Positions 4,365 through 32,000 of a DNA stretch of 32,000 nucleotides are shown here, in pieces. A program made the translations under genes and the position numbers. Each line of letters starts with the position of its first letter. The stretch's first letter is position 1. The DNA comes from an uncultured Ketobacter sp. (GTDB lineage Bacteria > Pseudomonadota > Gammaproteobacteria > Pseudomonadales > Ketobacteraceae). Under the pieces are notes generated by a model that saw only the letters and a program-made list of their open reading frames with translations, was not told where the DNA came from and ran no database searches. The stretch covers positions 57,855 through 89,854 of the forward strand of contig CAXHEX010000012.1 of the NCBI GenBank assembly GCA_964016105.1, written 5' to 3'.

Positions 4365-4367
4365 CCC

Positions 4368-15666: not shown

Positions 15667-15671
15667 CGGAT

Positions 15672-16491: not shown

Positions 16492-16538
16492 AGATTGTCC
16501 TGCAATCGTGTTTCGCTAACATTTTGAACATCAGGATA

Positions 16539-16628: not shown

Positions 16629-16671
16629 GTCTCTATGATTTTACGAGGCGTGATTCGGGATGTTAATTTTT

Positions 16672-17670: not shown

Positions 17671-17703
17671 TGTCTTTTCTCCCCTGAGTCAATAATTCAG
17701 GTG

Positions 17704-18054: not shown

Positions 18055-18089
18055 GTGTACTATATAGTACACATTTGTTTCTGAGGCAA
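18053..18089 (-). promoter_or_regulatory. Putative sigma70 promoter with a perfect 22-bp palindromic operator; a leaderless mRNA is predicted
   Basis: The - strand reads TTGCCT (18089-18084), a 17-nt spacer, TATATA (18066-18061), GTACAC, then ATG (18054). The palindrome ATGTGTACTATATAGTACACAT (18053-18074) contains the -10 box and the first two bases of the start codon. Confidence 0.55.
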
Positions 18090-18145
18090 GCTTTCTCGGT
18101 AATGCAGGTGGGTGTTGAAAACATCGGACAGCCTTGGATCGATTG

Positions 18146-18868
18146 TCACTGCCACGAGCGCAGGCCCACGGACTGGCTGCCACTACCTTCTGACCTAACC
18201 TCGAGATTTGGGCTCTTTGATGCAAGGTAGGCAATGGGTTGATCCAGGACGAAGGGATAGAGCACTGTCAAGGAGGACAGTGTTGGGATGGGCACAGCTT
18301 TCCCAACATAGCGAAGTGCCGCCTCGATCAACCAGGCAACGGCCTGATCATTTGTGATGACGATCAGATCCTTCCGTACCAATCGTTTGCCATTTTCTAC
18401 TCTTTCAATTGCTCCCCAACTCGCCTGGCTCTGAATGACCATATTGGTCATGCGCCGGGTACCTTCACGTTCGCCATAGGTTTCACTCATCCGACGATGA
18501 AGTTCGGCTGAGGAACAGTCACCTTGTAACGCAGAAAGGCGCCCTACCAGCTCAGCGACCTTCCCGAAGAACGGGTAGGTGGCAATCGCCATTCCCCAAG
18601 TTAGCGCAGCTATAGGCGTGCTCGGATCTGCCTTGAATATCTCGACACCTTTCTCAGCAAAACCAGAAAGCTCAGGGCGCGGTTCTAACCAAAGCCGGTT
18701 CAACACAGTCCGGGTTTTTTTGCGCGCAGCTGCGCCAAGGCCCGCATCATCCAGCAAGGTATCTAGTTCGTCGAGCGTACCGAAATCAGCACGAACCCGC
18801 AGGGCAGCTGCTGCCCATTCGAGCGGGATAAAGCGGTCAAAACCAATTTTAGGTGCTGATGGTGTCAT
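18146..18868 (-). CDS. brxA: Putative BrxA (terminal gene of the type 3 BREX operon)
   Basis: 240 aa. It starts 5 nt after the pglZ stop. The assignment rests only on position, since BREX type 3 order ends in brxA. I did not recognise any diagnostic motif. Confidence 0.45.
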   Translation of the reverse strand: MTPSAPKIGFDRFIPLEWAAAALRVRADFGTLDELDTLLDDAGLGAAARKKTRTVLNRLWLEPRPELSGFAEKGVEIFKADPSTPIAALTWGMAIATYPFFGKVAELVGRLSALQGDCSSAELHRRMSETYGEREGTRRMTNMVIQSQASWGAIERVENGKRLVRKDLIVITNDQAVAWLIEAALRYVGKAVPIPTLSSLTVLYPFVLDQPIAYLASKSPNLEVRSEGSGSQSVGLRSWQ

Positions 18869-18873
18869 ACAGT

Positions 18874-20868
18874 TCAGTTCACGTATCTCACTTTAATAAA
18901 AGGTACCAGCAGCTCTTCGACGGATATTCCGCCATGAACTACCACCTGATCATCCTTGGTTACAAATGCCCTGCGGCCCTCAGCAAATAGAGGCATGAAG
19001 TTCGCAGGTAGTCCAGCTATATCGAGTCGAAAGGTATCCCCATAGGTTGCTTGAGTTTCAGCAACCATGGCTTCGTTGCGATAGGCCCGGACGCGCTCAC
19101 CACGCATTTCGGATGCGACACCCTGATTGGGTCTGCCTATCCCGACCGCCTCAACATTGCCGTGATCGGCGGTCAGATAGACATGGAAGCCGTTGTTTAG
19201 CAGCATGGAAAAAAGACGCTCGACAAAGCCCGATTCGCACCAGCTTTTGATTTGGGCCGCTACGCCCCGTTTACCGAGTACCGCGCCATGGATAATCTCA
19301 TCGACGGTATCCACCACAAGCCCGGCAAGCTTTACTGATGGATTGGTGAGTTCCGCCTCAAGGGCGGGAAGATCGTCATTACGTTTGATGGACTTCTGGT
19401 AGAACACTTCGCTGGCATTGATGCCATGATCCTGCCAAAAGCGCTTCCATTGGCCTGGTTCCTTGGATGTCGACTCAATACTGTCGGCAAACTCACGGGG
19501 TCTTAGGCCGGAAAATAATGCCTGCCGGGAGACTGACGTTAACGTCGGCAGCCAGGCGAAGCAGGTGTGCTCGTCAAACATCAACCTTTGCGACTGGTTG
19601 ATCACGCTTTCGCGTATCTGGACCCACTGATCGACCGCCAGTCCATCAAAGACCACCAAGGCGATCTTCTGCTCTCCCTCATCCCGGCACATGGATAAGT
19701 AGCGCGGGATGTGGTGGACCATGATAGGTCCTTTGGCGGCGGGCAGAGATGGCAGGTCAGCGAAATGCTTTTCGACCCATTCACACAATCGCGCATCAGC
19801 TGCATCGAGCAGATCTTGCATTGCATCTTTAATGCTTTCGGCATAATGCGCATCCAGCCCATGAAACCGCGACAAGATTTCACCCATGCGACGGGAGAAG
19901 TGGGTCCAATCACGGTGAGATGACTCAACCGTCGGCAATTCACCCGTTAGGTTCTGAATACCATCGCGGACCAGGATTTGCATCGATGCCGGATCTTGCA
20001 CAACGCCCAGCTTGGCCCACTCAGGCAACGCTGTCGGTACACCCTGAACAACGAGCGGGTGTAACGTGCCATCCAGGAACATGGAGTCGATAATCACACG
20101 CACATCATGGTGATCGAAAGGAACCTCTATCTTGGCGACATAATTTTCTGGTGCCGGTTCGCCCATCCGAGATCCGGTGATTCCTTGTTGGGTCAAATAG
20201 CGATACCAGGCATCTTGAACAACGCGCAGGGTGACACTTTTGTGGGCGAACAACTCGGCGATGGGAATACCTTCAAACGTGTCGTGCTCTCCAAGCACTT
20301 GCTCGACATGCTGTGCCAGCACGGCCGGGAGCGGTGTGTCTCCATAATGAAGCCGAAGCAATTCACGCCAAAGGTCTTCTGGACGTGTCAGCAGATGGGG
20401 GCTGATTCGGAAGATATGCGTCAGCACGAACTCCTTGGTGGCCGCTTCGCCCAACGACTGATGTGCATGCTTTGCCTGGGCCGCAAACAGCGAAGGCCAC
20501 ATGTCGCTGCCCAACTGCTTTACCACGGCATAGCTTAGTTTCGGGAATAGCTCTGTGAGCCCCAGACTGAGCTTGCGTGCCTGGCGTAGGTAGTCCCAGG
20601 GGAGGTCGTTGGTGTTGGTGCCCCGAAGATGAAGAACAAGTGCGTTAGATGGCGCTGGTTGGCCGTGGTCCCAGGCGTCGCGATAGCGTTCCTCGTACTC
20701 CGCCCGAAAGGCGACACTATCCTCGAAGGGCAGCACTTCGAAACCTCGCTCACGCAAACCGGACAGAACCTGCTCATCCAGCAAAACATCGTCTGGGTCC
20801 GAGACGACCCACAGTCGAGCCAGATCTGCCGGAAACTCCTTGAGGATACGGTCAACCCAAAGCGTCAT
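18874..20868 (-). CDS. pglZ: PglZ, alkaline-phosphatase-superfamily BREX protein
   Basis: I prefer the ATG at 20868 (MTLWVDRILKEF), which overlaps the helicase TGA (ATGA). C-terminal PglZ-type motifs: VVFDGLAVDQW, LPTLTSVSRQALFSG, YLTADHGN. Confidence 0.8.
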   Translation of the reverse strand: MTLWVDRILKEFPADLARLWVVSDPDDVLLDEQVLSGLRERGFEVLPFEDSVAFRAEYEERYRDAWDHGQPAPSNALVLHLRGTNTNDLPWDYLRQARKLSLGLTELFPKLSYAVVKQLGSDMWPSLFAAQAKHAHQSLGEAATKEFVLTHIFRISPHLLTRPEDLWRELLRLHYGDTPLPAVLAQHVEQVLGEHDTFEGIPIAELFAHKSVTLRVVQDAWYRYLTQQGITGSRMGEPAPENYVAKIEVPFDHHDVRVIIDSMFLDGTLHPLVVQGVPTALPEWAKLGVVQDPASMQILVRDGIQNLTGELPTVESSHRDWTHFSRRMGEILSRFHGLDAHYAESIKDAMQDLLDAADARLCEWVEKHFADLPSLPAAKGPIMVHHIPRYLSMCRDEGEQKIALVVFDGLAVDQWVQIRESVINQSQRLMFDEHTCFAWLPTLTSVSRQALFSGLRPREFADSIESTSKEPGQWKRFWQDHGINASEVFYQKSIKRNDDLPALEAELTNPSVKLAGLVVDTVDEIIHGAVLGKRGVAAQIKSWCESGFVERLFSMLLNNGFHVYLTADHGNVEAVGIGRPNQGVASEMRGERVRAYRNEAMVAETQATYGDTFRLDIAGLPANFMPLFAEGRRAFVTKDDQVVVHGGISVEELLVPFIKVRYVN

Positions 20869-23690
20869 TGGTTTGCGCCCTCTTGGCTGCCAATACGGAG
20901 CATGATCACCGCATTGAGATCGGGCGTGCAATTTTCAGCGTCCGCCAGGGCCGCCATTCTTGCTTGGTGTTCGGCCTCTAGTCGTTTGCGGCGATGTTCC
21001 CGCACAGCGGGGAGACCGATCCGTCCTATGGCCTGGTGGCGTGCTTCAAACGCATAGCGCGCTCGTTCACGCTCGCCGGCCAACCATTCGCGGTGTTCTT
21101 CCAGTAACCCTGAGAACACAGACTCCCCTTGGGTTTTAGCCGCTGCCAGCGATGACTCGAACCACTCCAAGGCGCTCTCTGCCTCGACGGCTGGGGCGAG
21201 TGATACCGTCTCGGTCAGCAGCAGATCCCAGATTCGTTTGGCGGTGGGTACAAAAGTGCGGCCATCATTCGCCACGAACACCGGCAAGAAACGTTTTCGA
21301 CTAAAGCTGTCTGAGGCACTGGAGGCGCTGAGACTAATCTCCCAAAGCGACCACACCCCCTGTACCGTGCCAGGTAGGCCTGTCACCGTGGTGATTGGCA
21401 GCGGCAGGCCGGCTACACAACGTGGCAGCTCACCAATTACTGCACGTGCGCGTGAGTCCTCGAGGGTGATCCACTCTATGTCTGGGTTTTGTTCGGCGGT
21501 GCGTGCATCGAAGCAAACTCGGGGCGACTCGCTCCCATCTGCCCACTTTACGCGCCAGGCATCACCTGCTTTCTCAGCTGAACCGTTCCGAGTTGGCAGG
21601 CCATTAACGATGGCCCGTTCAAGCCAATACTGGGCCGGATGGTCACGCCACTTGCGGGCATCATCTGCCTCCAGTGTGTGGTCTTCCGTTAACAGATCGG
21701 TATCTTCTCGGCTGGCGGCAACCTTCTCACGTACCTGGTCAATGACGGCGTCACATTCCTTGTCGATGGATTCGGGGTCTTGCAGTCCATGCACAAAGAG
21801 CTCATCGAAGATGGGCTCCACTTCAACTGAATCCATCACGTCCGCTGCTTTGTCGACGCCAAACTCCTGGGCAATAACCTCGAGTTTATGTTCCAGCACC
21901 TCGCGCACCCGGTGCTCCACCGTGTCATCCAGAACGAGGTTGATTGCACGCACCACATGCGGCTGGCCGATACGATCCACACGGCCGATGCGCTGTTCCA
22001 GTCGCATGGGGTTCCACGGCATATCGAAATTGACGACGACGTGGCAGAACTGCAGATTCAGACCTTCGCCACCCGCATCGGTGGAAATCAGCACTCTCAT
22101 ATCGCGTGAGAAGGCTTGTTGAGCGCGAGTACGGGCGTCCAGGTCCATACCGCCGTTGAGCAGTGCCACGGAAAATCCGCGGCTCTCAAGAAACTCTGCC
22201 AGCATCGCTTGGGTCGGTACGAATTCGGTGAAGATCAGAACCTTAAGTTGGGGGTCATTCTCTTCCTGCTGGAGTTTGTAGATCAGCTCCAACAGCGCCT
22301 CAGCCTTGGCGTCGGCGCCCTGGCGCTCGGTTTCGCGCGCCAGCTCCAGTAGCATCTCTACCTCCGCCTTCTCCCGTTCCCAGCCACTGGTCTGTACGGC
22401 AATCTCGAGTTGGGATTGGCCGTCCAGCTCTGCCCACTCGTCGACATCCGGTTCATCAAACAGGTTCGTTTGTAATTGGGGTGTCTCCAGCAGCGTCAGG
22501 CGTTTTTCCAGAGTAGTGCGAATCGCGGCAGTGCTGGATGTGACCAGCCGCTGCATCAAGATCATCAAGAAGCCGATGTGTCGCTGCTTGGCTGCCAAAG
22601 CCTGGTTGTAACCATGGCGCACATAATCCGTTACGGACTCATAGAGCCGTTGCTGCGCAGCATGCTTATCCAGCCAGGCAACGGGTAAAAGGCGAGTCGC
22701 TCTCGGCTTGAACAGGGGTTGGCCTTCGGCAGTGATGGAGACTCGTTTTTCGGTACGAATCACAAAGGGGCGCACCCGCTCATGGTTGATGCTGGACTCA
22801 TCGGGGAAGGAGTCACGGTCCAGCAATTGCATCAGCCGCATGAACTGATCCGTTTTACCCTGATGCGGTGTTGCAGACAGCAACAGCAGATAGGGGGCGG
22901 CTTCGGAGAGTGCCGCGCCCAGCTTATAGCGGGCTACCTGTTCGGTACTGCCGCCAAGGCGGTGCGACTCATCGATGATCACCAGGTCCCATCCGGCTGA
23001 GATCAGATCCTCGAAGCGTTCGCGGTTGTAGGTGTTGAGCTGTTCCAGGCTCCAGCCACGCCGTTTTTCAATCGGCTTCACCGAGTCCAGGGAACAGATT
23101 ACCTGGTCGTGCATCCGCCAAAGATTGTCCTCTTCATCTCGCCACTGCCGGAAGGCGGTAATCTCGGAAGGTTCGATAAACCGGAAGTTCTCACCGAAGT
23201 GCAGGCGCATCTCGGCCTGCCACTGACGCACCAGCCCTTTGGGGGCGACGACGAGCACTCGCCGCACCATGCCGCGCAGTTTGAGCTCGCGCAGAATCAA
23301 GCCTGCCTCGATGGTTTTACCGAGACCTACCTCATCGGCCAGCAGGTAGCGGATACGGTCCCGGCTCATGGCCCGATTCAGGGCATAGAGCTGGTGTGGT
23401 AATGGCACCACGCTGGACTGGATCGGCGCCAGCAGCAGGTTGTCTTCCAGGGCATCGAGCAGCTTGGCCGCGGCGGTAGTGTGCAGAATCTGCTCAACCG
23501 TTGGCTGTACGCTGGACAGATCGGCGAGATCCTCGGAACGGGCGCGCACAACCGCATCCTTGTTCGGCAGCCAGATCCGATAGGCTAGTTCTCCCCACAG
23601 GTTTTGGCGATCGACTACCCGGCAGGGTGAAGCCTGCCGAGCATGCCAACACCAATCACCGATGCCAAACCCCGTTACAGCATCCGTCAC
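20865..23690 (-). CDS. brxHII: SNF2/RapA-like superfamily 2 helicase (BrxHII)
   Basis: 941 aa. Motif I LADEVGLGKTIEAG, II VIIDESHRL, III LLSATP, V STDAGGEGLNLQ, VI QRIGRVDRIGQ. The GTG start overlaps the methyltransferase stop (GTGA). Confidence 0.85.
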   Translation of the reverse strand: MTDAVTGFGIGDWCWHARQASPCRVVDRQNLWGELAYRIWLPNKDAVVRARSEDLADLSSVQPTVEQILHTTAAAKLLDALEDNLLLAPIQSSVVPLPHQLYALNRAMSRDRIRYLLADEVGLGKTIEAGLILRELKLRGMVRRVLVVAPKGLVRQWQAEMRLHFGENFRFIEPSEITAFRQWRDEEDNLWRMHDQVICSLDSVKPIEKRRGWSLEQLNTYNRERFEDLISAGWDLVIIDESHRLGGSTEQVARYKLGAALSEAAPYLLLLSATPHQGKTDQFMRLMQLLDRDSFPDESSINHERVRPFVIRTEKRVSITAEGQPLFKPRATRLLPVAWLDKHAAQQRLYESVTDYVRHGYNQALAAKQRHIGFLMILMQRLVTSSTAAIRTTLEKRLTLLETPQLQTNLFDEPDVDEWAELDGQSQLEIAVQTSGWEREKAEVEMLLELARETERQGADAKAEALLELIYKLQQEENDPQLKVLIFTEFVPTQAMLAEFLESRGFSVALLNGGMDLDARTRAQQAFSRDMRVLISTDAGGEGLNLQFCHVVVNFDMPWNPMRLEQRIGRVDRIGQPHVVRAINLVLDDTVEHRVREVLEHKLEVIAQEFGVDKAADVMDSVEVEPIFDELFVHGLQDPESIDKECDAVIDQVREKVAASREDTDLLTEDHTLEADDARKWRDHPAQYWLERAIVNGLPTRNGSAEKAGDAWRVKWADGSESPRVCFDARTAEQNPDIEWITLEDSRARAVIGELPRCVAGLPLPITTVTGLPGTVQGVWSLWEISLSASSASDSFSRKRFLPVFVANDGRTFVPTAKRIWDLLLTETVSLAPAVEAESALEWFESSLAAAKTQGESVFSGLLEEHREWLAGERERARYAFEARHQAIGRIGLPAVREHRRKRLEAEHQARMAALADAENCTPDLNAVIMLRIGSQEGANQ

Positions 23691-26443
23691 GCATCGGCCT
23701 CCGTGCGTGTCAGCGCATGGTCATACCACATCAGCAGCTGCTCATCTTCCTGCAAGGAGGCTTCGGGAATCTTCTGCGCGAGCTTGATGATCGTCTGGTA
23801 GTCCTTGTTTACCCAGGCTGCCTTGAAGCCGGTGCGTAGCACCTCGAGGCGGAACTCTTTGAGCTTGCGACCAGTAAAGGCGAGGTAGGTCTCGAACTCC
23901 TTCAGCAGTGCCTTCTCGCGCTTCTTCTCCAGGTCCTGGGCCTTGTTAGGGTCGGGTACAAACCAGCGATCCTTGGCTTTGGCCACGAGGCGTTTATCAT
24001 TCTTCTCCAGGCCGCGCAGATCCTTGTGGTTGGTGGAGAGGTAGCTGTGGATCTGGCTGGGCACATCACCGCTGCCTTCGTACTTGAGGAAGTTGTCTTC
24101 CAGCAGGGCCGCTAGCTCTGGCTTGGCCTCGTGTTTGCGCCAACCGGCGCCCAGTTGCTTGGTGAATTCTGGATGAATCTCCTGGTAGGTGGACGGGCGC
24201 TTTTTGAGGAACTCGGTCAACCAATCAATGGCGCTGCGCTCGTCACTGACGAACAGCTCCATTTGCGGTGCCTGAGCCATCTGTGCGCGTTTTTTGTCAT
24301 ATTCGGCGACCTGTTCGGGCAGGAAGACCATGCCGTCAATCTCATTGAATCGGCTGCGGAGCCCGCTCAGGAATTCGTCGCTGGAAAGTGGTACTGGGGC
24401 GTCATGGCGGACAAACCATGCCACCAACCGGTCATAGATGCGCCGAGGGTCACGTTCAACGATGAACTCTAACTCACCATCTCTGGCCTTCGTAACCGAG
24501 AGTTGCTTTAAGTGGGTCTGTACGAAATCCCAAGCTGACTCGGGTGTAGCACCGCGCTCGGCAAAGCGCTGTTCCAACCCGCCGTTGGGCTTATAAACAG
24601 AGATAACCAAATCCTGTTTCACTGTGTTCGGCGATACAACTTGCTGGAAACTTCCTTGTTTCTTATCGAGTGCAGTGACCTCAGCCACCACGAAACCTGT
24701 CTGCTGAAGCGCTACTTGGATTGCGTTCCAAACGGCTGCTCGACTATTCGAAAAAACCACGGTCATCCAGCGTCCGGGCTTTAGCACTCGGTAGTATTCG
24801 CTAAAACATCGATGCATCAGATGCTGATATTCAGGGATTCCTTTCTGTCGAACTCGATCAACAATTGCCTCAGGATTTGGATCGGTCTTTACGCCATGCC
24901 AAGACTCCACAAGGAAATTCAGATCTGAATAATAGATGTTTTCTCCGAAAGGCGGGTCAGTAAAGATGTAGTCAATACTTTCATCTTCTAAAGCAAGGCG
25001 AGCAGCGCTTCCAGTATTAATAGCTGCAACACTTTTTGGGGCGTACCCACTAAATGTCTTGACTAGGCGTCCTAGCTTTCCATCGAGGATGTACCACGGA
25101 CTAGGCTCAGCAGTTTGAGATGCGACGTAGTAAACACCGCTTAGAAATTGGTTTACTTGCGAGAAACCAGATGGTCTAAATCGGTTCAAAATGGATGCTG
25201 TCCAGAATGCCTGCTCCACCATAAAGAGCAGCATGCCTCTGGTGCGTGGTTCTGGATATGTCCGAGCTTTATGCCACAGGAGCGCCATGGCGTGTGCAGC
25301 TCTAGGGAGAAACATATAGTGCATGGCAGAAGAGTTTGTTGTTTTCATTCGACCAACCCGTGTCATTTGACAGTCTGGGAATCGATCGGTGGGTAGATCT
25401 GCTGGCAGCGGAAGATCGGATATTTTTGCCAAATTAACCAAGTCAGCATCATCTGGCTTTTTAGAATGTTTGACTTTTCCGATCTTGTAACGAATCAGTG
25501 CCGGTACACGCTTAGGTCTCTTTTCGGCTTTTCCTGTAGCTGGGTCTATAAAAGTTTCAAAATGGAGATCCATCTGCTCCTTTTTCGCCTCTGCACCACA
25601 ATGCGGGCATATTAAAATGTCCGCTACCTTTTGCGTTTCTTCGTCGAGCGCAACTTCCGTAAACACCATCTCACCGGCACATGATGGGCAACTGAGCACC
25701 TCACTCCATACTGTGTAATCAATTTGCGCTTTGGTCTTGCCATCCGTATGCAGTGTTTCGTACATCCAGCCGATTTCCTGCTCTAACTCCTTGAGTAGTT
25801 TCTTCCCCGCCTTAGCAAACGACTCCACATCGAATGGGATGTTGTAGTTGGCGCCGATAAAGGTGGCTGCGGGTGATAGGTCATTGAGGATGACGCGTCG
25901 GGCACCCCACTTAGGCGCGGGGTGGCCTTCTTTTTTCCAGGTCATCTCCAGCTCATGCCGGTACACGGCAGGGGCCGAGCCACACCATTGAGTCGCCACA
26001 CCGGTCATGCCTGAGCCTGCGAACCCATCGAGCACAATATCCCCCGGTTGGGTGTAGTGCAGAATCGATGGGACGATGGCCAGATGGGGCACCTTGGTAT
26101 GGTAGGAGTGTGCTTTGTAGATCTGATCTGTTTTACCCACTGACACGTCGATGGCCAGCGGTTCCCGCGAATACTTCACTTCTGGATCGTAGGGCTTGCC
26201 GTAATGTGCGACAAAATCCGACAACCACGGATTGGGGCAAGCGGTGTAGTACGGTGGATCAGACATGGCGAGGATCGCTTCGTCCGGCCCCTGCGGGAAG
26301 CCTTCCTGCTTGCGGAATTCAGGATCCTTCAGCTTCTCAGCGAGAAGCTGCGAAAAGTGTTCCCGGCGTGCATGGTCGCTAGGAAACGTTTGGCCTAGGC
26401 ATTCGACAGGGCCGCTCGCCTGATTCTGTAGTAGATCATCCAT
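23687..26443 (-). CDS. pglXI: Large DNA (N6-adenine/N4-cytosine type) methyltransferase, PglXI-like
   Basis: 918 aa. SAM motif LDGFAGSGMTG, catalytic FTDPPFGENIYYSDL, a CxxC...CxxC zinc ribbon (CPSCAGE...CPHCGAE) between them, an extra N-terminal SDPPYYTACPNPW, and a roughly 400-aa C-terminal extension. Confidence 0.85.
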   Translation of the reverse strand: MDDLLQNQASGPVECLGQTFPSDHARREHFSQLLAEKLKDPEFRKQEGFPQGPDEAILAMSDPPYYTACPNPWLSDFVAHYGKPYDPEVKYSREPLAIDVSVGKTDQIYKAHSYHTKVPHLAIVPSILHYTQPGDIVLDGFAGSGMTGVATQWCGSAPAVYRHELEMTWKKEGHPAPKWGARRVILNDLSPAATFIGANYNIPFDVESFAKAGKKLLKELEQEIGWMYETLHTDGKTKAQIDYTVWSEVLSCPSCAGEMVFTEVALDEETQKVADILICPHCGAEAKKEQMDLHFETFIDPATGKAEKRPKRVPALIRYKIGKVKHSKKPDDADLVNLAKISDLPLPADLPTDRFPDCQMTRVGRMKTTNSSAMHYMFLPRAAHAMALLWHKARTYPEPRTRGMLLFMVEQAFWTASILNRFRPSGFSQVNQFLSGVYYVASQTAEPSPWYILDGKLGRLVKTFSGYAPKSVAAINTGSAARLALEDESIDYIFTDPPFGENIYYSDLNFLVESWHGVKTDPNPEAIVDRVRQKGIPEYQHLMHRCFSEYYRVLKPGRWMTVVFSNSRAAVWNAIQVALQQTGFVVAEVTALDKKQGSFQQVVSPNTVKQDLVISVYKPNGGLEQRFAERGATPESAWDFVQTHLKQLSVTKARDGELEFIVERDPRRIYDRLVAWFVRHDAPVPLSSDEFLSGLRSRFNEIDGMVFLPEQVAEYDKKRAQMAQAPQMELFVSDERSAIDWLTEFLKKRPSTYQEIHPEFTKQLGAGWRKHEAKPELAALLEDNFLKYEGSGDVPSQIHSYLSTNHKDLRGLEKNDKRLVAKAKDRWFVPDPNKAQDLEKKREKALLKEFETYLAFTGRKLKEFRLEVLRTGFKAAWVNKDYQTIIKLAQKIPEASLQEDEQLLMWYDHALTRTEADA

Positions 26444-26491
26444 TATCGTGATTCCTTATTTCTTCTTGTCGGCCCATGTCGTTCTAAAACC

Positions 26492-29400
26492 TCACTCAAC
26501 CACAAACCGCAGTTTGTCCGCGTCCTTGCCCTTGCAGCGATCGTTTAGGAAGGATTCGAAGCGCTTGCGCAGGTCCTCCGGCGTGGCGGGGGATCCGCCG
26601 GTCAATAGCGCCTTTTTGATGTCATCACTGGTGACCAGGATTTTTTCGAGGCCGGATAATGCCTCTTGGATACTGGCCACGAACTCGGGGGTGACCGGAT
26701 CAGGCAGGTCCTTCGATGCCAGGAATCCCTGGATCAGGTTGCGTTGTGCATCCTTTAGCAGCTCAAAGTTGGCCTGGATGATGGGGTCCTCAAGGTTTTC
26801 CAGCAGTGTTTGCTGCCAGTCAGCCAACATGCGGTCCAGTTCGTCGTCCAGTCCTTTGAGTACGTTGGCTGCCGGTAGCAGCTCGCCTTGTTCGTTGGCG
26901 GGACGGAAGCTGCAGTGGGGGCAAACCGGGCTGGCAACGAGTTCGGAATCCACCAGCGAGGCGCAGCTCTTGAGTTTGTCCAGTTTGTCGTCGAAGCCAG
27001 TGAGTTGGCCGGTGGGCATCAGTGAGATACCTGCCAGCGCACGCAGGGTGGTGATGCGCGCGTCTTTGCGTAGGGCAGACTTGGTCTTGTCTTCCGCTAC
27101 CCCGAGACGGGCCTTGCTGTGTTGGGCCACGTAGGCGGTGACGTAGTCCTTCTTTAGCGTGGCCAGGCGTTGGCGGTACTCTGCGGCATGCTGTGCGCTG
27201 CGGTCAGCGGCGAGCTGATCGAGTATCTCCTTGCGGGCGATCTGGGCCTGCTGTACCCAGGGATGGTCGGTTGTTAGCACCATCTCGGCCTGGGAGAGAT
27301 AGGCCGCCGTGGCGCCGAGTTCGGCGACCAGGTCGCGCAGCTTCTCGACCGTATCCAAAACCTCGAGATTCTTCTTTTGGGTGTCGATGTCGGCCTGGGT
27401 AATGCGCAGGTTCTTGAGCTTGCCGATGGTGTTGTAGGGCGACAGCTTCTCCAGGAACTCCTTGAGCGCTTCCAGCCGTGTGCGCCAATCCTGCAGCTCT
27501 TCTTCACGCAGCAGAGACTGGCCCCAGAAACTGAGGCGGTTTTGCAGGTCGGTACCGACAGTAAGCACCCGTTGCACCTGCTTGGCCACGGCATCCAGCA
27601 ATTCCTTGACCGGCTCGTCCTTACCCTGGGTAGCCATCTGAGCGAGGCCTGATGGCAGGCCCAGCAGTTCGAACAGTGAGCGCAGCACCGCGACGTTGAT
27701 CTCTTTGGGTGCCTCGACGTGCTTGAGCTGATGGAGTTCATCCAGGGAACGCTCGGCCAGCAGGGAGATCTTGCCGGAATCGATCTTGTCGCCGGTGATG
27801 GCCAGCACGATGTCGCCGGAATAGACCAGGCCGCCCAGCACGGCTACCAGCAGGTCGGGCTCCAGGCGGAAACGGACGGGTGCGAAGTATTCGACGTCAG
27901 TGGGGCCGCTGATCAGTTCACTGCGGTTGAGTACCTGGCCATGGCCTTTGGCCTGTAGCCGGTTCACTACCTCTTGGGCATATTTGGATCGCGTCGGCTC
28001 AATGCGGTCGCCGTCCAGCATTTCCAGCGCGTCCAGTATGGCGATAGCGTCCTTGGTTCGGGTTCCGCCAGCCAAGGCCTTCAGCGTATTGGTGATCAGC
28101 TGTTTACGGTTAGCCTCGGTTACCAGCACAGAGAAGGTGGGGTACTCCGGCGCCAGGTCCCCGAAGTGGGTTCCCAGCGCCAGGCCGGAGGTGACATTCA
28201 CGATGTCGCGGAAGTTAGCGCGCTCATCTGGCCCCAGCCGCAGCTTGTCGCGTATCGATACGCCCTTGGCCCATTCCTGCAGGGTTTTGGTTTTACCCTG
28301 ATAGGTGACCTCGAAGGCGGACATCTGCTTGTCTTGCAGCCATTTGCTCATGTCGCGCAGGGCATCCTTGGCCTTGTCCAGGTAGATGGCCTTGGCGGCA
28401 CCACTGGCGGTCGATGCCAGTTCCTGGGCGGCGGCGTAGAAGGCGAGATGGCGCTTGATGGCTTCGTCCAGCCCCTTGAGACGGAAGAACACCTCATCGA
28501 CCTTGCTTTCATCCCGGAAACGGGGCGGCTCGAAGGGTTGGATGAAGTAGATATAGAAGTCGCGCTCCGGCTGCGCCGTGGGACGGTCGTTGGGCGCACC
28601 CAGGAACAGGTAACCGTTGCGCTCTACACGGTGGTCCTGCCACTCAACCTGATGTTGCCAGATCTTGTAGCCGGTGACATAGGCATGCTCATCGGTACAT
28701 TCCATGAGCTGCATCAGGGCGCTGTAGTAGGCGCGGTCCAGCGCGTCATCAGACAATGCTTCCGCGCGTTTCTCGATCTGGGCGTCGTAGTCGACGTCCT
28801 TCTTGAGATCGAGGTAATACTGTTCGGTGTCCGGCGCCTTGGAGATAAACTGGCCGTTGACCGTTTTGACGATCTCGCGCAGGGTGGTCTGCACTGCGGT
28901 CAGCAGGTCATCGGACGGTTCACCACCCATGTCCTCGATGCCGGGCTGATACAGGCAAAGGGTGTCACGCAGCTCCTCGGCTGTTGGTCCCACCGGTACA
29001 TAGATATCGCCGCCCGTGGTCAGGCGGTGGACGGACAGTCCCTTGATGACCCGCGCGGCCATCGCCTTGTAGGCTGGTCGGGTAAACGCTTTCTGCACCC
29101 GTTCGGCAAGCACCTCTGCCACCGCCAGTACCGGGCCGATATTGGGGTCTGAGCGTAGTACGGAGTTGCTGGTGACCGTTTCCCAGAATTTATCGAAACC
29201 AATCAGTCCGGGGTGACCGGTTGGCACTGTTTCGTCGAGGATGTCCTGAATCTGATCGCGCAGGGTCACCAGCGCACCGCGTTTTTCGGTGAATACCAGC
29301 TGCTCGAAGGTGTTGATGTAATCGGGGTGCACCGGGAACAAGCGGACGTATTCATCCATCCGCTCGTTCATGTTGCTGTAAAACTTGGAAAAAGGCGTGA

Positions 29401-30217
29401 GGTAGTTGCGGATCTTGTCCTGCTGATCGGCTGATTTCTTGAGTAGACGCTCGGCTACGACAAAGCTCACATCCTGACGGGCGAGCAGCACCTGGGTGAA
29501 GCGCTCGCTTACCCGACGCAGGCTGTCGGCCACATGCTGGAAACGGCTGCTGTCGAAGATGGCCTCCTGCACGCCAGCCACGAAGCGGAAGCGCAGGTGC
29601 TTGGTGACTTCGCCGATTTCTCGCAGGAATGAGAGATCGAGGACCAGGTCGTGGTCCTTGCGGGAGCGCAGGTATTCGAGAAACTCATCGACGACGAGCA
29701 GCAGCCCCTGGTTAGGATGTACCTCGTCGAAGGCGGCCATCATCTTCTCAAAGGCAGCCTTGTTGTTGACCACTTTGTCGGCAGGCGGAAAGCTGAAGCT
29801 GACACCCTGGCTTTCCAGGAAGAGTTCGAGTTCCTGGGTGATGATGTCACGCAGGGGCATCTGGCTGGAGATTTCGACGCGGTGCACTTTGAACTTGCCC
29901 GCAATAGTTTCTGCGGCTTTAGCGACCTTCGAGTGGCGGATCATCGGGACAAAGGCGGTGTCCTCTGCGATCAGCGACAACACGGACATCAAGTGCGACT
30001 TACCGGTGCCGTAGTTACCCACGACAAGCACGCCCTTGTGATCGACCGATTCATCGAACGAAAGCTGCGGGATCATCTGTTTGGCAATCCGTTCCGCCAT
30101 GTCATCGGATATGACGTAGGTTGCGACGAGTTTCTTTGCCTCGTCGGGCCGATTTGCATCGAGCAATTGAATGACCGACTCAATCGGCTCGAACTGTATG
30201 AGATCCCCGTAGCGCAT
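26492..30217 (-). CDS. brxC: Large P-loop ATPase, BrxC/PglY-like
   Basis: 1241 aa. Walker A GNYGTGKSH and Walker B LLLVVDEFLEY near the N-terminus, then a long helical remainder. GAGAGGAAAA Shine-Dalgarno sequence upstream. Confidence 0.8.
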   Translation of the reverse strand: MRYGDLIQFEPIESVIQLLDANRPDEAKKLVATYVISDDMAERIAKQMIPQLSFDESVDHKGVLVVGNYGTGKSHLMSVLSLIAEDTAFVPMIRHSKVAKAAETIAGKFKVHRVEISSQMPLRDIITQELELFLESQGVSFSFPPADKVVNNKAAFEKMMAAFDEVHPNQGLLLVVDEFLEYLRSRKDHDLVLDLSFLREIGEVTKHLRFRFVAGVQEAIFDSSRFQHVADSLRRVSERFTQVLLARQDVSFVVAERLLKKSADQQDKIRNYLTPFSKFYSNMNERMDEYVRLFPVHPDYINTFEQLVFTEKRGALVTLRDQIQDILDETVPTGHPGLIGFDKFWETVTSNSVLRSDPNIGPVLAVAEVLAERVQKAFTRPAYKAMAARVIKGLSVHRLTTGGDIYVPVGPTAEELRDTLCLYQPGIEDMGGEPSDDLLTAVQTTLREIVKTVNGQFISKAPDTEQYYLDLKKDVDYDAQIEKRAEALSDDALDRAYYSALMQLMECTDEHAYVTGYKIWQHQVEWQDHRVERNGYLFLGAPNDRPTAQPERDFYIYFIQPFEPPRFRDESKVDEVFFRLKGLDEAIKRHLAFYAAAQELASTASGAAKAIYLDKAKDALRDMSKWLQDKQMSAFEVTYQGKTKTLQEWAKGVSIRDKLRLGPDERANFRDIVNVTSGLALGTHFGDLAPEYPTFSVLVTEANRKQLITNTLKALAGGTRTKDAIAILDALEMLDGDRIEPTRSKYAQEVVNRLQAKGHGQVLNRSELISGPTDVEYFAPVRFRLEPDLLVAVLGGLVYSGDIVLAITGDKIDSGKISLLAERSLDELHQLKHVEAPKEINVAVLRSLFELLGLPSGLAQMATQGKDEPVKELLDAVAKQVQRVLTVGTDLQNRLSFWGQSLLREEELQDWRTRLEALKEFLEKLSPYNTIGKLKNLRITQADIDTQKKNLEVLDTVEKLRDLVAELGATAAYLSQAEMVLTTDHPWVQQAQIARKEILDQLAADRSAQHAAEYRQRLATLKKDYVTAYVAQHSKARLGVAEDKTKSALRKDARITTLRALAGISLMPTGQLTGFDDKLDKLKSCASLVDSELVASPVCPHCSFRPANEQGELLPAANVLKGLDDELDRMLADWQQTLLENLEDPIIQANFELLKDAQRNLIQGFLASKDLPDPVTPEFVASIQEALSGLEKILVTSDDIKKALLTGGSPATPEDLRKRFESFLNDRCKGKDADKLRFVVE

Positions 30218-30229
30218 AAGTTTTCCTCT

Positions 30230-30706
30230 CTAACCCTTTTTTTCAATTACAAATGGGACCAGGCCATCCAGGCCGTAGTCCTGATATTCCGGATGCCCCA
30301 TCTGGGCATAGGTCAATCGACCATCAACGAGCTCCCCTGGCCATACCGCCACCACTCGTCGGCTGTGAGCGTGGCGCTTGAGCAGATCCAACGGATCGAG
30401 CTTGAGCGTCTGATCGAATAGCAGCTCGATGTTGTCGAGCAGCAGCAAATCGCCATTGGCGTCCTCATCGGCCAGCTCGCGCAGAATGACGTTGGTCTGC
30501 AGCGCCCTTTGCCGCTGAGGTATTGCCGCGAGACGGTTTCCTGCCGTCGCACCGACATTCATTACCTTCATATCCCGCTGATTGGCCAGTGCGGCAAGGA
30601 GGGCTGTCTTGCCACTGCCTGGCTGGCCTATCAACAGGATCAGCTTGCTGTGCAGTGCGCCCACCTCGTCGACAAGTTGTGCAAGTTTTTCCAGCATCCG
30701 CACCAT
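30230..30706 (-). CDS. brxF: Small P-loop ATPase, BrxF-like
   Basis: The start is placed at the ATG at 30706 (MVRMLEKL), overlapping the upstream stop by 1 nt (TGATG). An ATG at 30697 is an alternative. Walker A GQPGSGKT and Walker B LLLLDNIE. About 158 aa. Confidence 0.65.
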   Translation of the reverse strand: MVRMLEKLAQLVDEVGALHSKLILLIGQPGSGKTALLAALANQRDMKVMNVGATAGNRLAAIPQRQRALQTNVILRELADEDANGDLLLLDNIELLFDQTLKLDPLDLLKRHAHSRRVVAVWPGELVDGRLTYAQMGHPEYQDYGLDGLVPFVIEKKG

Positions 30707-31653
30707 CACTCCATCTCGGCTTCGAGCCGCTGCTGATCGGGGGATCGATAGCCAGGTGCGATAACAAGGTTCTCTACGCCATAGAGTGCCTGCCTGTTCT
30801 TCAGCCAAAGGTGGTACTCAGGTCCTTTTAGACTGTGATCTTCTGAGCAGTCCACATTCCACCGGCGAAGTACGTAACCTGCGACAGCAGCTCGAACGTT
30901 GACATTCAACACTCCGTTTTGCATGTCGTAGTCGGCTTCTATTGTTTTGGGATGCTTGAGACTGGGATGTGGCACGATTTCCAGTTCTACAATTCGATTC
31001 CACTGGATATCCGATTCCCGAGTTTCATGTTCTTTGATCATGCTGTCGGTGATCGTCGGGTCAAAGATGCGCGTGATTACGAAATCTGAGAATCTGGATT
31101 GCCGCCGGTCGTAGCCGCGGACATGCCAGCGCAGACCGTTATCTACCAGTACAAATGGCACAATTTCACGTGTAGTTCGGCCGCTGCTCAGGGAGCGGTA
31201 GCCAATTTTTACCGCTTTTTCTTGATGGATCGCGCGGGTTAAAACAGACAGCGTCGATAGGGAAGGCCTGTTCAGTTGTGCGGGCATCTCGCACGCAATG
31301 AAGCCCTTGTGCGTACCAACGAAGTCATCACCGAATCCGTATGCAAGGGCTGCCAGCGCCTGGCTGGAGGAGTAGTCGAAAAGCGGTTCAAAAGCGTTCG
31401 AGCGGGTGTAGATTTTGGCCTTGGTGTCGTATTCCAGATTCTTCGGGGCCAGTTCCTTATATAAGGTGATGTCCCTGGTCGCAGCCGCTTCCTTGATGCC
31501 AAATCGGCTGACGATGTCATTTCGGCCGATGGTGCCCAGGAAGCAGACCTTGAAATCGATGTGAGACAAGCGTTCCTTCTGCGTCTGATTAATATCTTCT
31601 AGCCGCATGACTGGCATGTGATCACCTATTTTTGCCGCATTCGTACCCATCAT
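30706..31653 (-). CDS. brxR: WYL-domain transcriptional regulator with N-terminal wHTH (BrxR-like)
   Basis: WYL-type segment IGYRSLSSGRTTREIVPFVLVDNGLRWHVRGYDRRQSRFSDFVITRI. Putative N-terminal HTH DIVSRFGIKEAAATRDITLYKE. The start is uncertain: 31653 has no Shine-Dalgarno sequence, while 31617 is preceded by AGGTGA. Confidence 0.75.
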   Translation of the reverse strand: MMGTNAAKIGDHMPVMRLEDINQTQKERLSHIDFKVCFLGTIGRNDIVSRFGIKEAAATRDITLYKELAPKNLEYDTKAKIYTRSNAFEPLFDYSSSQALAALAYGFGDDFVGTHKGFIACEMPAQLNRPSLSTLSVLTRAIHQEKAVKIGYRSLSSGRTTREIVPFVLVDNGLRWHVRGYDRRQSRFSDFVITRIFDPTITDSMIKEHETRESDIQWNRIVELEIVPHPSLKHPKTIEADYDMQNGVLNVNVRAAVAGYVLRRWNVDCSEDHSLKGPEYHLWLKNRQALYGVENLVIAPGYRSPDQQRLEAEME

Positions 31654-31740
31654 GGCCGGTTATGATAATAAATAAATCATGTCAGAGTCAATATAAGATG
31701 TTGACATCATCAAAATGATTATGATTTAATCGGACGCTAA
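31654..31740. promoter_or_regulatory. AT-rich control region upstream of brxR, with repeated ATGAT/ATCAT half-sites and candidate divergent promoters
   Basis: - strand: TTGACT (31691-31686), 18 nt, TATCAT (31667-31662). + strand: TTGACA (31701-31706), 18 nt, TTTAAT. ATGAT/ATCAT pentamers start at 31662, 31676, 31706, 31715 and 31721. Two pairs form inverted repeats (ATGAT-N9-ATCAT and ATCAT-N4-ATGAT). Confidence 0.45.
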
Positions 31741-32000
31741 GTGACTGAACCCTGTTTAGCCTGGTGCTAAGCGCAGAGATCTCTGGACAGGAAACAAAGG
31801 TGAGTTCTGGAAATCCAGAAAATCATCGGTGGGCAGTTTGGGTCTATCGGCACACAAAAATTGGAGTTACTGGAGTTGCGATGCAAGGCAAAAACAAAGA
31901 ACGGCCTGAATTGCAAGAACCGAGCTTTACAAGGCGGTTCGTTTTGTTCTGTGCACAGCGACAGGTTGGATGTTGATGGTCTCGGTGATGCGTTGATTGG

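What the first reader, a model, noticed from the sequence alone, without database searches (positions are those of the whole stretch)
18146..31653. Complete seven-gene type 3 BREX locus with a WYL (BrxR-like) regulator
Seven co-oriented genes sit 0-50 nt apart or overlap by 1-4 nt. In order they are WYL regulator, small P-loop protein (GQPGSGKT), 1241-aa P-loop ATPase (GNYGTGKSH), 918-aa DPPF/FAGSG methyltransferase, SNF2-type helicase, PglZ (DG...TSVSR...DHG motifs) and a 240-aa protein. This is the brxF-brxC-pglXI-brxHII-pglZ-brxA order defined computationally for BREX type 3 by Goldfarb et al. 2015. An upstream WYL regulator of this kind has been described for other BREX types. To my knowledge type 3 has had little experimental study. 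All ORFs are intact, so this is a good candidate for functional work on methylation motif, phage range and the role of the helicase.
Basis: partly seen in the sequence, partly recalled or inferred. Interest (0 to 1): 0.7.

Follow-up and report, generated by a model that had tools for sequence, protein, structure and literature searches.

The report
Intact type 3 BREX phage-defence operon
This is a complete, textbook-order type 3 BREX anti-phage operon with its BrxR repressor, carried as cargo on a conjugative element; it is an ordinary member of a known family, except that the DNA-recognition part of its methyltransferase has been swapped relative to near-identical relatives.

Summary
The observation and the interpretation both hold. 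Seven co-oriented minus-strand genes (18146-31653) are tightly coupled and match, at full length, the models for BrxR, BrxF, BrxC, PglXI, BrxHII, PglZ and type 3 BrxA. All checked catalytic motifs are intact. The same order recurs in 38 related loci.

The regulator is a close homologue of the solved BrxR of plasmid pEFER (E 1e-95), not merely BrxR-like.

New context:
- The operon lies in a defence island on a PFGI-1/ICEclc-type conjugative element. Thoeris is divergently upstream.
- The closest relatives are 93-99% identical in BrxF, BrxC, BrxHII, PglZ and BrxA. Across the central part of PglXI they are only 15-70% identical, and its target-recognition insert (aa ~155-486) is 24-49% identical. 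That segment has GC3 of 0.47-0.49, against 0.73-0.75 next to it. This points to recombinational exchange of the specificity module.
- Relatives often carry extra defence genes inside the operon. This copy has none.

Caveats: the 240-aa "BrxA" matches no DUF1819 model. No pEFER-style BrxR operator was found. Function is inferred.

Type 3 BREX is already catalogued in hundreds of taxa, and cultured strains carry similar loci. This is a new member of a known kind, of modest interest.

The parts
31662..31691 (-). Best sigma-70-like promoter match of the region (TTGACT-18-TATCAT), just upstream of brxR
   Evidence: 10 of 12 matches, the top minus-strand hit in 15600-32000. This is a consensus match only. 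The block 31654-31736 is the part of the upstream region that is conserved in L030.
31676..31710 (.). Only inverted repeat upstream of brxR (ATGATGTCA-N17-TGACATGAT). It straddles the -35 box and is a candidate BrxR operator, unproven.
   Evidence: ATSATGTCA occurs 3 times in the window against 0.56 expected. The right arm is not conserved in L010. The architecture differs from the pEFER R-BOX, which is 11-5-11.
30706..31653 (-). brxR: wHTH-WYL-CTD transcriptional repressor (315 aa, or 303 aa if it starts at Met13, 31617)
   Evidence: PDB 7QFZ (BrxR of E. fergusonii pEFER) E 1.2e-95, residues 18-303. Also CapW and BrxR_Acin; precomputed PF26109 WHD_BrxR, PF13280 WYL and PF26107 BrxR_CTD. WYL 43.8 bits.
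30230..30706 (-). brxF: small P-loop (ORC/Cdc6-STAND-like) protein, 158 aa. Walker A is GQPGSGKT. The Walker B position reads LLLLDNIE.
   Evidence: NF033453 BREX_3_BrxF 192.4 bits (cut-off 50). PADLOC BrxF E 4.4e-45; motif conservation in 29 homologues.
26492..30217 (-). brxC: 1241-aa AAA+ ATPase of the type 3 (DUF6079) BrxC/PglY family
   Evidence: PF19557 1921 bits over 1-1241. PDLC02482 1805 bits. GNYGTGKSH and LLVVDE are invariant in 25 homologues.
23687..26443 (-). pglXI: 918-aa N6-adenine DNA methyltransferase and presumed specificity subunit. Motif I is FAGSG (aa 141) and motif IV is DPPF (aa 496).
   Evidence: PDLC02541 PglXI 1350.9 bits over 5-915. PF01555 57.4 bits; motifs conserved in 32 homologues.
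24986..25981 (-). Target-recognition insert of PglXI (aa ~155-486, includes a CxxC...CxxC zinc ribbon). It is the core of a recombined, lower-GC segment that extends to about aa 720 (window ~24,300).
   Evidence: DNA of L030, L010 and L026 is 88-94% identical along the operon but not alignable at 24,986-25,980. TRD identity is 24%, 49% and 35%, against 93-99% for BrxF, BrxC, BrxHII, PglZ and BrxA in those loci. GC3 is 0.485 (TRD) and 0.468 (aa 487-640), against 0.754 in brxC and 0.728 in the pglXI C-terminus.
20865..23690 (-). brxHII: 941-aa Swi2/Snf2 (RapA-like) helicase
   Evidence: PDLC02500 1421 bits over 9-935. SNF2-rel_dom, Helicase_C and ResIII; the nearest solved structure is RapA (E 2.4e-41); motifs DEVGLGKT, DESH, SATP and QRIGRVDRIGQ are intact.
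18874..20868 (-). pglZ: 664-aa alkaline-phosphatase-fold protein of the BREX-3 subfamily
   Evidence: NF033449 BREX_PglZ_3 729.5 bits (cut-off 250). PF08665 85 bits. DG, TSVSR, DHGN and HGG are conserved.
18146..18868 (-). brxA (type 3 form): 240-aa protein, last gene of the operon
   Evidence: PADLOC BrxA PDLC02444 220.7 bits over 3-238. Present after pglZ in 24 related loci at at least 85% query coverage. No Pfam or PDB sequence match.

Best explanation
The region is a functional-looking type 3 BREX (bacteriophage exclusion) operon, brxR-brxF-brxC-pglXI-brxHII-pglZ-brxA. It is carried as cargo in a defence island of an integrative conjugative element.

Inferred mechanism, by analogy with type 1 BREX and the related MANTIS system:
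1. PglXI recognises a short asymmetric DNA motif through its internal recognition insert. With help from the BrxC AAA+ ATPase, and probably BrxF, it N6-methylates one adenine of that motif on host DNA.
2. Incoming phage or plasmid DNA that lacks the mark is recognised by the same PglXI-centred complex. Its replication is then blocked by PglZ (a phosphodiesterase/nuclease-fold protein) and the RapA-like BrxHII motor. BrxHII takes the place of BrxL in type 1.
3. BrxR, a dimeric wHTH-WYL repressor, keeps the operon at low expression from a promoter just upstream of its own gene. It releases the DNA when its WYL domain binds a ligand (single-stranded DNA in other BrxR/CapW proteins). Defence protein levels therefore rise after an attack.

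The specificity module of PglXI was acquired by recombination from a different, lower-GC lineage. This copy should therefore mark a different motif from its near-identical relatives.

Shown here: gene identities, gene order, intact motifs, mobile context and mosaicism. Inferred: methylation, restriction, regulation and ligand.
For: - Full-length matches of all six core proteins to type 3-specific models.
- Tight gene coupling.
- Catalytic motifs are intact and conserved across 23-32 homologues.
- The order F-C-XI-HII-Z-A recurs in 38 loci from many proteobacterial and other lineages.
- BrxR is about 60% identical to the solved, experimentally characterised BrxR_Efer. It retains the Arg equivalent to the DNA-binding R17, here R28 (PMC9122601).
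- A BrxR homologue sits directly upstream of brxF in 10 of about 25 related loci that have enough upstream DNA.
- ssDNA-triggered BrxR derepression is documented for an ICE-borne BREX (PMC13622015).
- MTase-directed specificity and AAA+-dependent MTase loading are shown in MANTIS, whose components are reported to be homologous to the type 3 BrxC, methyltransferase and helicase.
- ICE context: TraD, TraC and the TIGR0374x-5x ICE proteins lie at 1-15666. Thoeris, a DUF6361-PLD-helicase trio and NERD-UvrD lie beyond 32000 on the same scaffold.
- PglXI mosaic.
Against: - No experiment exists on this locus or on any type 3 BREX.
- The operon comes from a metagenome scaffold, so expression and host are unknown.
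- No BrxR operator of the published 10/11-5-10/11 type was found. The one inverted repeat present is not conserved in L010.
- The 'BrxA' shows no sequence-level relationship to DUF1819 BrxA.
- BrxF has N in place of the Walker B glutamate, and this is conserved. Its ATPase activity is therefore doubtful.
- The sister element L030 carries a split brxC. Such loci can decay.
Confidence: 0.88

Rival explanations
1. The locus is an inactive or decaying remnant. It is intact by ORF criteria but is not expressed, or is not functional, in its host.
For: The closest relative on the same ICE family (L030, Ca. Thiodiazotropha endolucinida) has brxC split into ORFs of 1004 and 416 aa. Only a consensus-level promoter is detectable. 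The sequence comes from a metagenome, so there is no phenotype.
Against: All seven ORFs are full length against their profiles. All catalytic motifs are retained. Start/stop coupling is preserved. A 13.5-kb stretch without a single disruption is unlikely without selection.
Confidence: 0.07
2. It is a different methylation-based system that shares an SNF2 helicase and a large methyltransferase: DISARM, a DUF499/MANTIS BREX-related system, or a type I/III R-M variant.
For: BrxHII also matches DrmD models (NF038317 at 363 bits; PADLOC DrmD at 327 bits). PglXI also matches a generic PADLOC 'MTase_II' model at 956 bits. PMC12839542 reports that the type 3 ATPase, MTase and helicase have homologues in DUF499 systems.
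Against: The DrmD score is below its 610-bit cut-off and far below the BrxH model at 1421 bits. PglZ, BrxF and BrxA of the BREX-3 type are present. The ATPase is DUF6079, not DUF499. No DrmA/DrmB (DUF1998), DUF3870, PLD nuclease, HsdS/HsdR or Res gene is in the operon.
Confidence: 0.02
3. BrxR is mainly a regulator of the whole defence island rather than a dedicated BREX regulator. From the shared 297-bp divergent intergenic region it would also, or instead, control the Thoeris operon that starts at 31951 on the + strand.
For: Thoeris (ThsB-ThsA-ThsB) is transcribed divergently from the same intergenic region. The Thoeris-brxR-BREX-3 arrangement is conserved at 95-98% protein identity in L010. 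BrxR homologues are known to sit beside many different defence systems and islands (PMC9122601).
Against: The brxR stop overlaps the brxF start. L030 shares brxR and only 83 bp upstream of it, without Thoeris. Nine other relatives have a BrxR homologue next to brxF with no Thoeris hit. No promoter-like site facing thsB was found.
Confidence: 0.2

Closest known systems
Type 3 BREX as defined by Goldfarb et al. 2015 and re-analysed in PMC12839542 (Nucleic Acids Res 2026)
   Same: The six genes and their order are the same (brxF-brxC-pglXI-brxHII-pglZ-brxA). BrxHII is 941 aa and RapA-like. PglXI has an internal ~300-aa recognition insert with a four-cysteine zinc ribbon and a ~280-aa C-terminal region. 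BrxF is a small ORC/Cdc6-STAND-like P-loop protein.
   Different: Nothing differs in architecture. This copy is the compact form, without the accessory genes that many relatives carry between brxC|pglXI or pglXI|brxHII (BxaP in PMC10799925). It has an upstream BrxR. The paper calls BrxF an inactive STAND, but here Walker A is canonical (GQPGSGKT), although the Walker B glutamate is N.
BrxR of Escherichia fergusonii plasmid pEFER (PDB 7QFZ; PMC9122601)
   Same: Full-length homologue (E 1.2e-95, residues 18-303 against 7-293). It has the same wHTH-WYL-CTD architecture and the conserved DNA-binding Arg. It is the first gene of a BREX operon on a mobile element.
   Different: pEFER BrxR controls a type 1 BREX plus BrxU. 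Its operator, GAAACCTACTG-N5-CAGTAGGTTGC, is absent here. The only repeat upstream here is 9-N17-9.
Type 1 BREX (E. coli, Salmonella, Acinetobacter, V. cholerae SXT ICE)
   Same: It shares the PglZ + BrxC + adenine MTase core. Self-marking is by methylation of an asymmetric motif. The MTase acts as the specificity factor (PMC11341690, PMC11842806). It is under BrxR control and is carried on an ICE (PMC13622015).
   Different: PglX is replaced by the unrelated-architecture PglXI (PF01555 type, with an internal recognition insert). BrxL is replaced by the SNF2 helicase BrxHII. BrxB is replaced by BrxF. BrxA is not detectable as DUF1819.
MANTIS / Gao_RL (DUF499 BREX-related type 2; bioRxiv 10.64898/2026.09.23.753747)
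   Same: It is the experimentally characterised BREX-related system whose family is reported to share homologues of the type 3 ATPase, MTase and helicase. An AAA+ ATPase of the ORC/Cdc6 clade loads an N6-adenine MTase. [quoted passage not shown]
   Different: MANTIS has a DUF499 ATPase, a DUF3870 protein and a PLD helicase-nuclease, and it has no PglZ. None of those families is found here.

Membership tests
BREX type 3 | PglZ of the BREX-3 subfamily | tested here: met
   NF033449 at 729.5 bits (cut-off 250), profile 2-641 of 642. PF08665 at 85 bits. Metal and nucleophile motifs are conserved.
BREX type 3 | BrxC/PglY-type large P-loop ATPase | tested here: met
   PF19557 at 1921 bits over the full length. 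PADLOC BrxC PDLC02482 at 1805 bits. Walker A and B are invariant. The type 1 NCBIfam BrxC model scores only 51 bits against a cut-off of 400, as expected for the type 3 clade.
BREX type 3 | PglXI methyltransferase (N6_N4_Mtase type, not PglX) | tested here: met
   PADLOC PglXI PDLC02541 at 1350.9 bits, 5-915 of 918. PF01555 at 57.4 bits. FAGSG and DPPF are intact.
BREX type 3 | BrxHII Swi2/Snf2 helicase | tested here: met
   PADLOC PDLC02500 at 1421 bits, 9-935. PF00176 and PF00271. RapA is the nearest solved structure, as PMC12839542 describes for BrxHII.
BREX type 3 | BrxF small P-loop protein upstream of brxC | tested here: met
   NF033453 at 192.4 bits (cut-off 50), profile 2-148 of 149.
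BREX type 3 | BrxA as the last gene | tested here: inconclusive
   It matches the PADLOC type 3 BrxA model at full length (220.7 bits). It is syntenic in 24 related loci at at least 85% query coverage. There is no PF08849/DUF1819 hit for it or for 12 homologues. hhalign against pEFER BrxA gives probability 0.6%. There is no PDB hit. So it belongs to the type 3 'BrxA' family, but homology to type 1 BrxA was not shown here.
BREX type 3 | Gene order brxF-brxC-pglXI-brxHII-pglZ-brxA on one strand | tested here: met
   The same order is found in 38 related loci.
BREX type 3 | Motif-specific adenine methylation of host DNA and exclusion of unmethylated phage | not testable with these tools
   This needs a methylome and plaque assays.
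BrxR family of WYL repressors | wHTH + WYL + C-terminal dimerisation domain | tested here: met
   Full-length alignment to 7QFZ, E 1.2e-95. Precomputed PF26109, PF13280 and PF26107.
BrxR family of WYL repressors | Conserved DNA-binding arginine of the wHTH (R17 in BrxR_Efer) | tested here: met
   R28 aligns with R17 (alignment; role of R17 from PMC9122601).
BrxR family of WYL repressors | Operator of two 10-11-bp inverted repeats with a 5-bp spacer near its own promoter | tested here: inconclusive
   No such repeat lies in 31,600-31,960. The only inverted repeat is 9-N17-9 over the -35 box, and it is not conserved in L010. The pEFER R-BOX sequence is absent. Picton et al. found no such inverted repeat for about 44% of BrxR homologues.
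BrxR family of WYL repressors | Ligand (ssDNA)-dependent release from DNA | not testable with these tools
   Known for VchInd5 BrxR and CapW.
DISARM | DrmA + DrmB (DUF1998) + a DrmD-class SNF2 helicase scoring above its cut-off | tested here: not met
   NF038317 DrmD scores 363 bits, below its 610 cut-off. No DrmA-type or DUF1998 protein lies in the operon.
MANTIS / DUF499 BREX-related systems | DUF499 ATPase, DUF3870 protein, PLD helicase-nuclease, and no PglZ | tested here: not met
   None of these families is hit, and PglZ is present.

The most novel reading that the evidence does not exclude
The window and three near-identical backbones form a natural swap series: L030 (Thiodiazotropha), L010 (Halieaceae) and L026. 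BrxF, BrxC, BrxHII, PglZ and BrxA are held at 93-99% identity while the PglXI recognition insert is exchanged (24-49% identity). The DNA-level breaks fall between the conserved methyltransferase motifs I and IV. If these systems are all active, PglXI alone sets the target motif for both modification and restriction in type 3 BREX. Its insert would then be a portable specificity cassette that recombination reshuffles among mobile elements, a type 3 counterpart of HsdS shuffling.
Probability: 0.45. Interest if true: 0.5.

Novelty: new member of a known kind. Interest (0 to 1): 0.3.

Why it matters
Type 3 BREX is the least studied of the common BREX types. In the searched literature I found no methylation motif, phage range, or role for its SNF2 helicase. 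By sequence search, no solved structure exists for its type 3-specific proteins other than BrxR.

This locus is a clean, compact, intact example with a well-understood type of regulator. Comparison with its relatives gives a ready-made design for specificity-swap experiments.

It is not unique, however. Similar loci exist in cultured strains that would be easier to work with: Pseudomonas asuensis JCM 13501, Methylococcus capsulatus Texas and Vreelandella aquamarina. The value of this copy is as one good candidate among many, plus the observation of recognition-module exchange.

Tried and rejected
- Pfam PF08849/DUF1819 for the 240-aa protein and 12 homologues: no hit. A profile search of the PDB gave no hit. 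hhalign against pEFER BrxA gave probability 0.6%.
- I looked for the pEFER BrxR operator, or any 8-12-bp inverted repeat with a 0-20-bp spacer, upstream of brxR. Only one 9-N17-9 repeat turned up, and it is not conserved in L010.
- Megablast of the operon against PLSDB plasmids gave only a 76% brxC fragment in a Roseomonas plasmid. It was uninformative.
- DISARM, MANTIS and type I/III R-M readings were rejected on profile scores and gene content.
- Rfam and tRNA scans of the window found nothing.
- The HTH + 332-aa pair after brxA was tested as a possible BREX accessory. It is absent from all 38 related loci, so it is treated as a separate module.
- The first AlphaFold model of the 332-aa protein (16 sequences) was poor, with pLDDT 41.7. 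A 57-sequence alignment gave pLDDT 88. Foldseek against the PDB then found nothing.
- A search of 5.8 billion proteins with the PglXI recognition insert found no match above 75% identity over at least 77% of the insert. The donor of the insert remains unidentified.

Full report
**Observation**

The minus strand of 18146-31653 carries seven ORFs of 315, 158, 1241, 918, 941, 664 and 240 aa.

The junctions, read directly from the sequence, are:
- brxR|brxF: TGATG, a 1-nt overlap
- brxF|brxC: a 12-nt gap containing AGAGGA
- brxC|pglXI: a 48-nt gap containing AAGGAA
- pglXI|brxHII: GTGA, a 4-nt overlap
- brxHII|pglZ: ATGA, a 4-nt overlap
- pglZ|brxA: a 5-nt gap

The mechanical ORF list extends brxF and pglZ to upstream TTG codons. 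The profile matches start at the ATG codons that give these junctions.

**Identity of the genes**

Three independent profile libraries agree.

| Gene | Evidence |
|---|---|
| brxF | NF033453 'BREX-3 system P-loop-containing protein BrxF', 192 bits (cut-off 50) |
| brxC | PF19557/DUF6079, 1921 bits over the whole protein; PADLOC BrxC, 1805 bits |
| pglXI | PADLOC PglXI, 1351 bits over residues 5-915; PF01555 |
| brxHII | PADLOC BrxHI\|BrxHII, 1421 bits over 9-935; SNF2-rel_dom and Helicase_C; RapA is the nearest solved structure |
| pglZ | NF033449 'BREX-3 system phosphatase PglZ', 729.5 bits (cut-off 250) |
| brxA | PADLOC BrxA, 220.7 bits over 3-238 |

I aligned each protein with 22-31 homologues recovered from other genomes. 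The following are intact in the window and at least 90% conserved:
- the Walker A and B motifs of BrxC
- motifs I and IV of PglXI
- SNF2 motifs I, II, III and VI of BrxHII
- the DG / TSVSR / DHGN / HGG residues of PglZ

BrxF has a canonical Walker A. At the Walker B position it reads hhhhDN-E, and the N is conserved. It probably binds nucleotide but may not hydrolyse it. This partly qualifies the 'inactive STAND' label in PMC12839542.

**The regulator**

The 315-aa protein is not merely WYL-containing. It aligns over residues 18-303 with the crystallised BrxR of E. fergusonii pEFER (7QFZ, E 1.2e-95). It aligns more distantly with CapW and Acinetobacter BrxR. Precomputed Pfam hits are WHD_BrxR, WYL and BrxR_CTD. 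R28 corresponds to R17, which is essential for DNA binding in BrxR_Efer.

The true start may be Met13 (31617). That ATG is preceded by AGGTGA, and homology begins just after it.

The best promoter-like site of the whole 16-kb region is TTGACT-18-TATCAT at 31691-31662. It lies inside the only upstream block shared with L030 (31654-31736).

I fetched the published pEFER operator, GAAACCTACTG-N5-CAGTAGGTTGC. It is absent here. The only inverted repeat is ATGATGTCA-N17-TGACATGAT over the -35 box, and its right arm is changed in L010. The operator therefore remains unidentified.

**Rival classifications**

The DISARM DrmD model scores 363 bits, below its 610 cut-off and far below the BrxH model. 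No DrmA/DrmB, DUF499, DUF3870, PLD, HsdR/S or Res protein is in the operon.

The one proposed check that fails is PF08849 for BrxA. A profile of 13 type 3 BrxA proteins finds no PDB entry. It does not align to pEFER BrxA (hhalign probability 0.6%). [quoted passage not shown]

**Context**

The window is part of a 169-kb metagenome scaffold, LARK21-1_SAMN15783160 scaffold_10.

Positions 1-15666 on the + strand encode the transfer apparatus of a PFGI-1/ICEclc-type integrative conjugative element. It includes TraD (TIGR03754), TraC (PFL_4706 type), the TIGR03747, 03749, 03752, 03755, 03756 and 03757 proteins, and TraG_N.

Beyond position 32000 the scaffold continues with:
- a divergently transcribed Thoeris operon (ThsB-ThsA-ThsB), whose thsB starts at window 31951
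- a DUF6361-PLD-helicase trio
- a NERD-UvrD protein

The BREX operon therefore sits in a defence island on an ICE.

L030 (Ca. Thiodiazotropha endolucinida) carries the same ICE family (traG region 92% identical) with BREX-3 at the same place. L010 (Halieaceae UBA5085) shares the Thoeris-brxR-BREX-3 block at 92-98% protein identity outside PglXI, which is 73% identical.

DNA homology with L030 and L026 stops at 18,142, 4 bp past the brxA stop. With L030 it also stops at 31,736. This delimits a 13.6-kb module that appears in different surroundings.

**Comparison with relatives**

A scan of one genome per species found 38 loci encoding a PglXI relative. All that are long enough keep the order brxF-brxC-pglXI-brxHII-pglZ-brxA.

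A BrxR homologue lies directly upstream of brxF in 10 of about 25 loci with enough upstream sequence. The BrxR-type 3 pairing is therefore common in this clade.

Many relatives have 1.8-5 kb inserted between brxC and pglXI, or between pglXI and brxHII. The inserts encode:
- a recurrent ~600-aa Schlafen/AlbA_2-HATPase_c_4 protein
- a GHKL ATPase
- a SIR2 + HerA pair
- an AAA_21 + DUF4276 pair
- a second PglXI copy, in L015

The pglXI|brxHII site is already known as an insertion point for the defence gene BxaP (PMC10799925). The window has neither insertion. It is the minimal form.

**A mosaic methyltransferase**

The three closest backbones are L030, L010 and L026. They are 93-99% identical to the window in BrxF, BrxC, BrxHII, PglZ and BrxA (BrxA is not covered in L010). 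They are only 55-73% identical in PglXI.

At DNA level the operon aligns at 88-94% identity, except for window ~24,986-25,980, which does not align at all. In protein coordinates this is aa ~155-486. That is exactly the insert between motif I (FAGSG, aa 141) and motif IV (DPPF, aa 496), which PMC12839542 identifies as the target-recognition domain with a four-cysteine zinc finger.

| Locus | Insert identity | Note |
|---|---|---|
| L030 | 24% | backbone 95-98% |
| L026 | 35% | backbone 93-97% |
| L010 | 49% | backbone 94-98% |

The rest of the methyltransferase core, to about aa 720, is 47-87% identical across the three loci (47-70% in L030). The last ~200 residues return to 87-100%.

The divergent segment has GC3 of 0.47-0.49. 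GC3 is 0.75 in brxC and 0.73 in the pglXI 3' end.

The best matches to the window's insert are only 71-77% identical. They are in loci with more distant backbones, such as Pseudomonas asuensis. A search of 5.8 billion proteins found no match above 75% identity over at least 77% of the insert.

The simplest reading is recombinational replacement of the specificity-determining part of pglXI inside a conserved operon. [quoted passage not shown] The prediction is that this copy marks and restricts a different motif from its near-identical relatives.

**Mechanism**

This section is inferred; only the anatomy is shown here.
1. BrxR represses the operon from its own promoter. It is released when the WYL domain binds ssDNA produced during a restricted infection, as shown for an ICE-borne type 1 BREX.
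2. BrxC, perhaps with BrxF in the role BrxB plays in type 1, loads or activates PglXI on DNA.
3. PglXI hemimethylates an asymmetric motif on host DNA.
4. Unmethylated incoming DNA is recognised by the same complex. It is then blocked through PglZ, which is a metal-dependent nuclease in type 1 (reference 15 of that paper), and the RapA-like translocase BrxHII.

**Novelty and score**

Type 3 BREX was defined in 2015. It was surveyed across roughly 900 taxa in 2026: one search reports BrxHII in 702 taxa, which is 77% of type 3 systems. BrxR is structurally and functionally characterised, and ICE carriage of BREX is known.

The locus is therefore a new member of a known kind. The statement that type 3 lacks experimental work is correct (no solved structures). 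But cultured strains with similar loci exist, so this metagenomic copy is not a privileged entry point.

The recognition-module exchange is the most useful new point. I score interest at 0.3.

Noticed in passing
window 16672-18074 (minus strand): A two-gene module lies directly after brxA: an XRE-type HTH gene (18054-17704, 116 aa) and a 332-aa protein (17670-16672). A perfect 22-bp palindrome, ATGTGTACTATATAGTACACAT (18053-18074), overlaps the HTH start codon.

The 332-aa protein has no Pfam, NCBIfam or PADLOC match. Its family has more than 8000 members at 90% clustering and 3840 clusters at 50%. Family members are fused to ubiquitin+RING, Ser/Thr kinase, TPR, Sel1 or DUF932 domains.

A confident AlphaFold model (pLDDT 88, beta-rich) has no Foldseek match in the PDB. 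The module is absent from all 38 other BREX-3 loci. The HTH partner is conserved in L042. In L041 the gene is flanked by transposases.
   Followed up: partly
window 26228-26263 (PglXI aa 61-72): PglXI carries a second DPPY-like motif near its N-terminus, SDPPYYTACPNP. It lies upstream of motif I, and every position is at least 90% conserved across 32 homologues. It is outside the Pfam-matched methyltransferase core, and PMC12839542 does not mention it. Its role is unexplained.
   Followed up: no
L003, L007, L008, L012, L015, L017, L021, L026 (between brxC|pglXI and pglXI|brxHII): Relatives carry defence-type genes embedded inside the BREX-3 operon. These are a recurrent ~600-aa Schlafen/AlbA_2 + HATPase_c_4 protein (found at either junction), a GHKL ATPase, a SIR2 + HerA pair, an AAA_21 + DUF4276 pair, and a second PglXI paralogue in L015. 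The window has none.
   Followed up: partly
window 31951-32000 and scaffold beyond (L002 1-9703): A Thoeris operon (ThsB-ThsA-ThsB) is transcribed divergently from brxR across a 297-bp intergenic region. It is followed by a DUF6361-PLD-helicase trio and a NERD-UvrD protein. The Thoeris-brxR-BREX-3 block is conserved in L010.
   Followed up: partly
window 1-15666 (+ strand): Transfer genes of a PFGI-1/ICEclc-type integrative conjugative element: TraD, TraC, the TIGR03747, 03749, 03752, 03755, 03756 and 03757 proteins, and TraG_N. The traG region is 92% identical to L030 from Ca. Thiodiazotropha endolucinida. This suggests a sulfur-oxidising gammaproteobacterial host range.
   Followed up: partly
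window 15955-16491 (minus strand): A GNAT acetyltransferase gene has markedly low GC (0.42; GC3 0.385) against about 0.58 around it. It has weak similarity to AAC(6') enzymes, far below their cut-offs. It is probably a separate recent acquisition.
   Followed up: no
L030 6225-9951: In the closest relative (Ca. Thiodiazotropha endolucinida) brxC is split into ORFs of 1004 and 416 aa. This is either decay of the system or an assembly error. L030 also has a 755-aa gene in place of the window's HTH-332aa-GNAT genes.
   Followed up: no
window 31617-31653: brxR may start at Met13 (31617) rather than at 31653. AGGTGA lies 4 nt upstream of that ATG, and homology to solved BrxR starts at residue 18. 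The promoter-like -10 box ends only 8 nt before the annotated ATG.
   Followed up: partly
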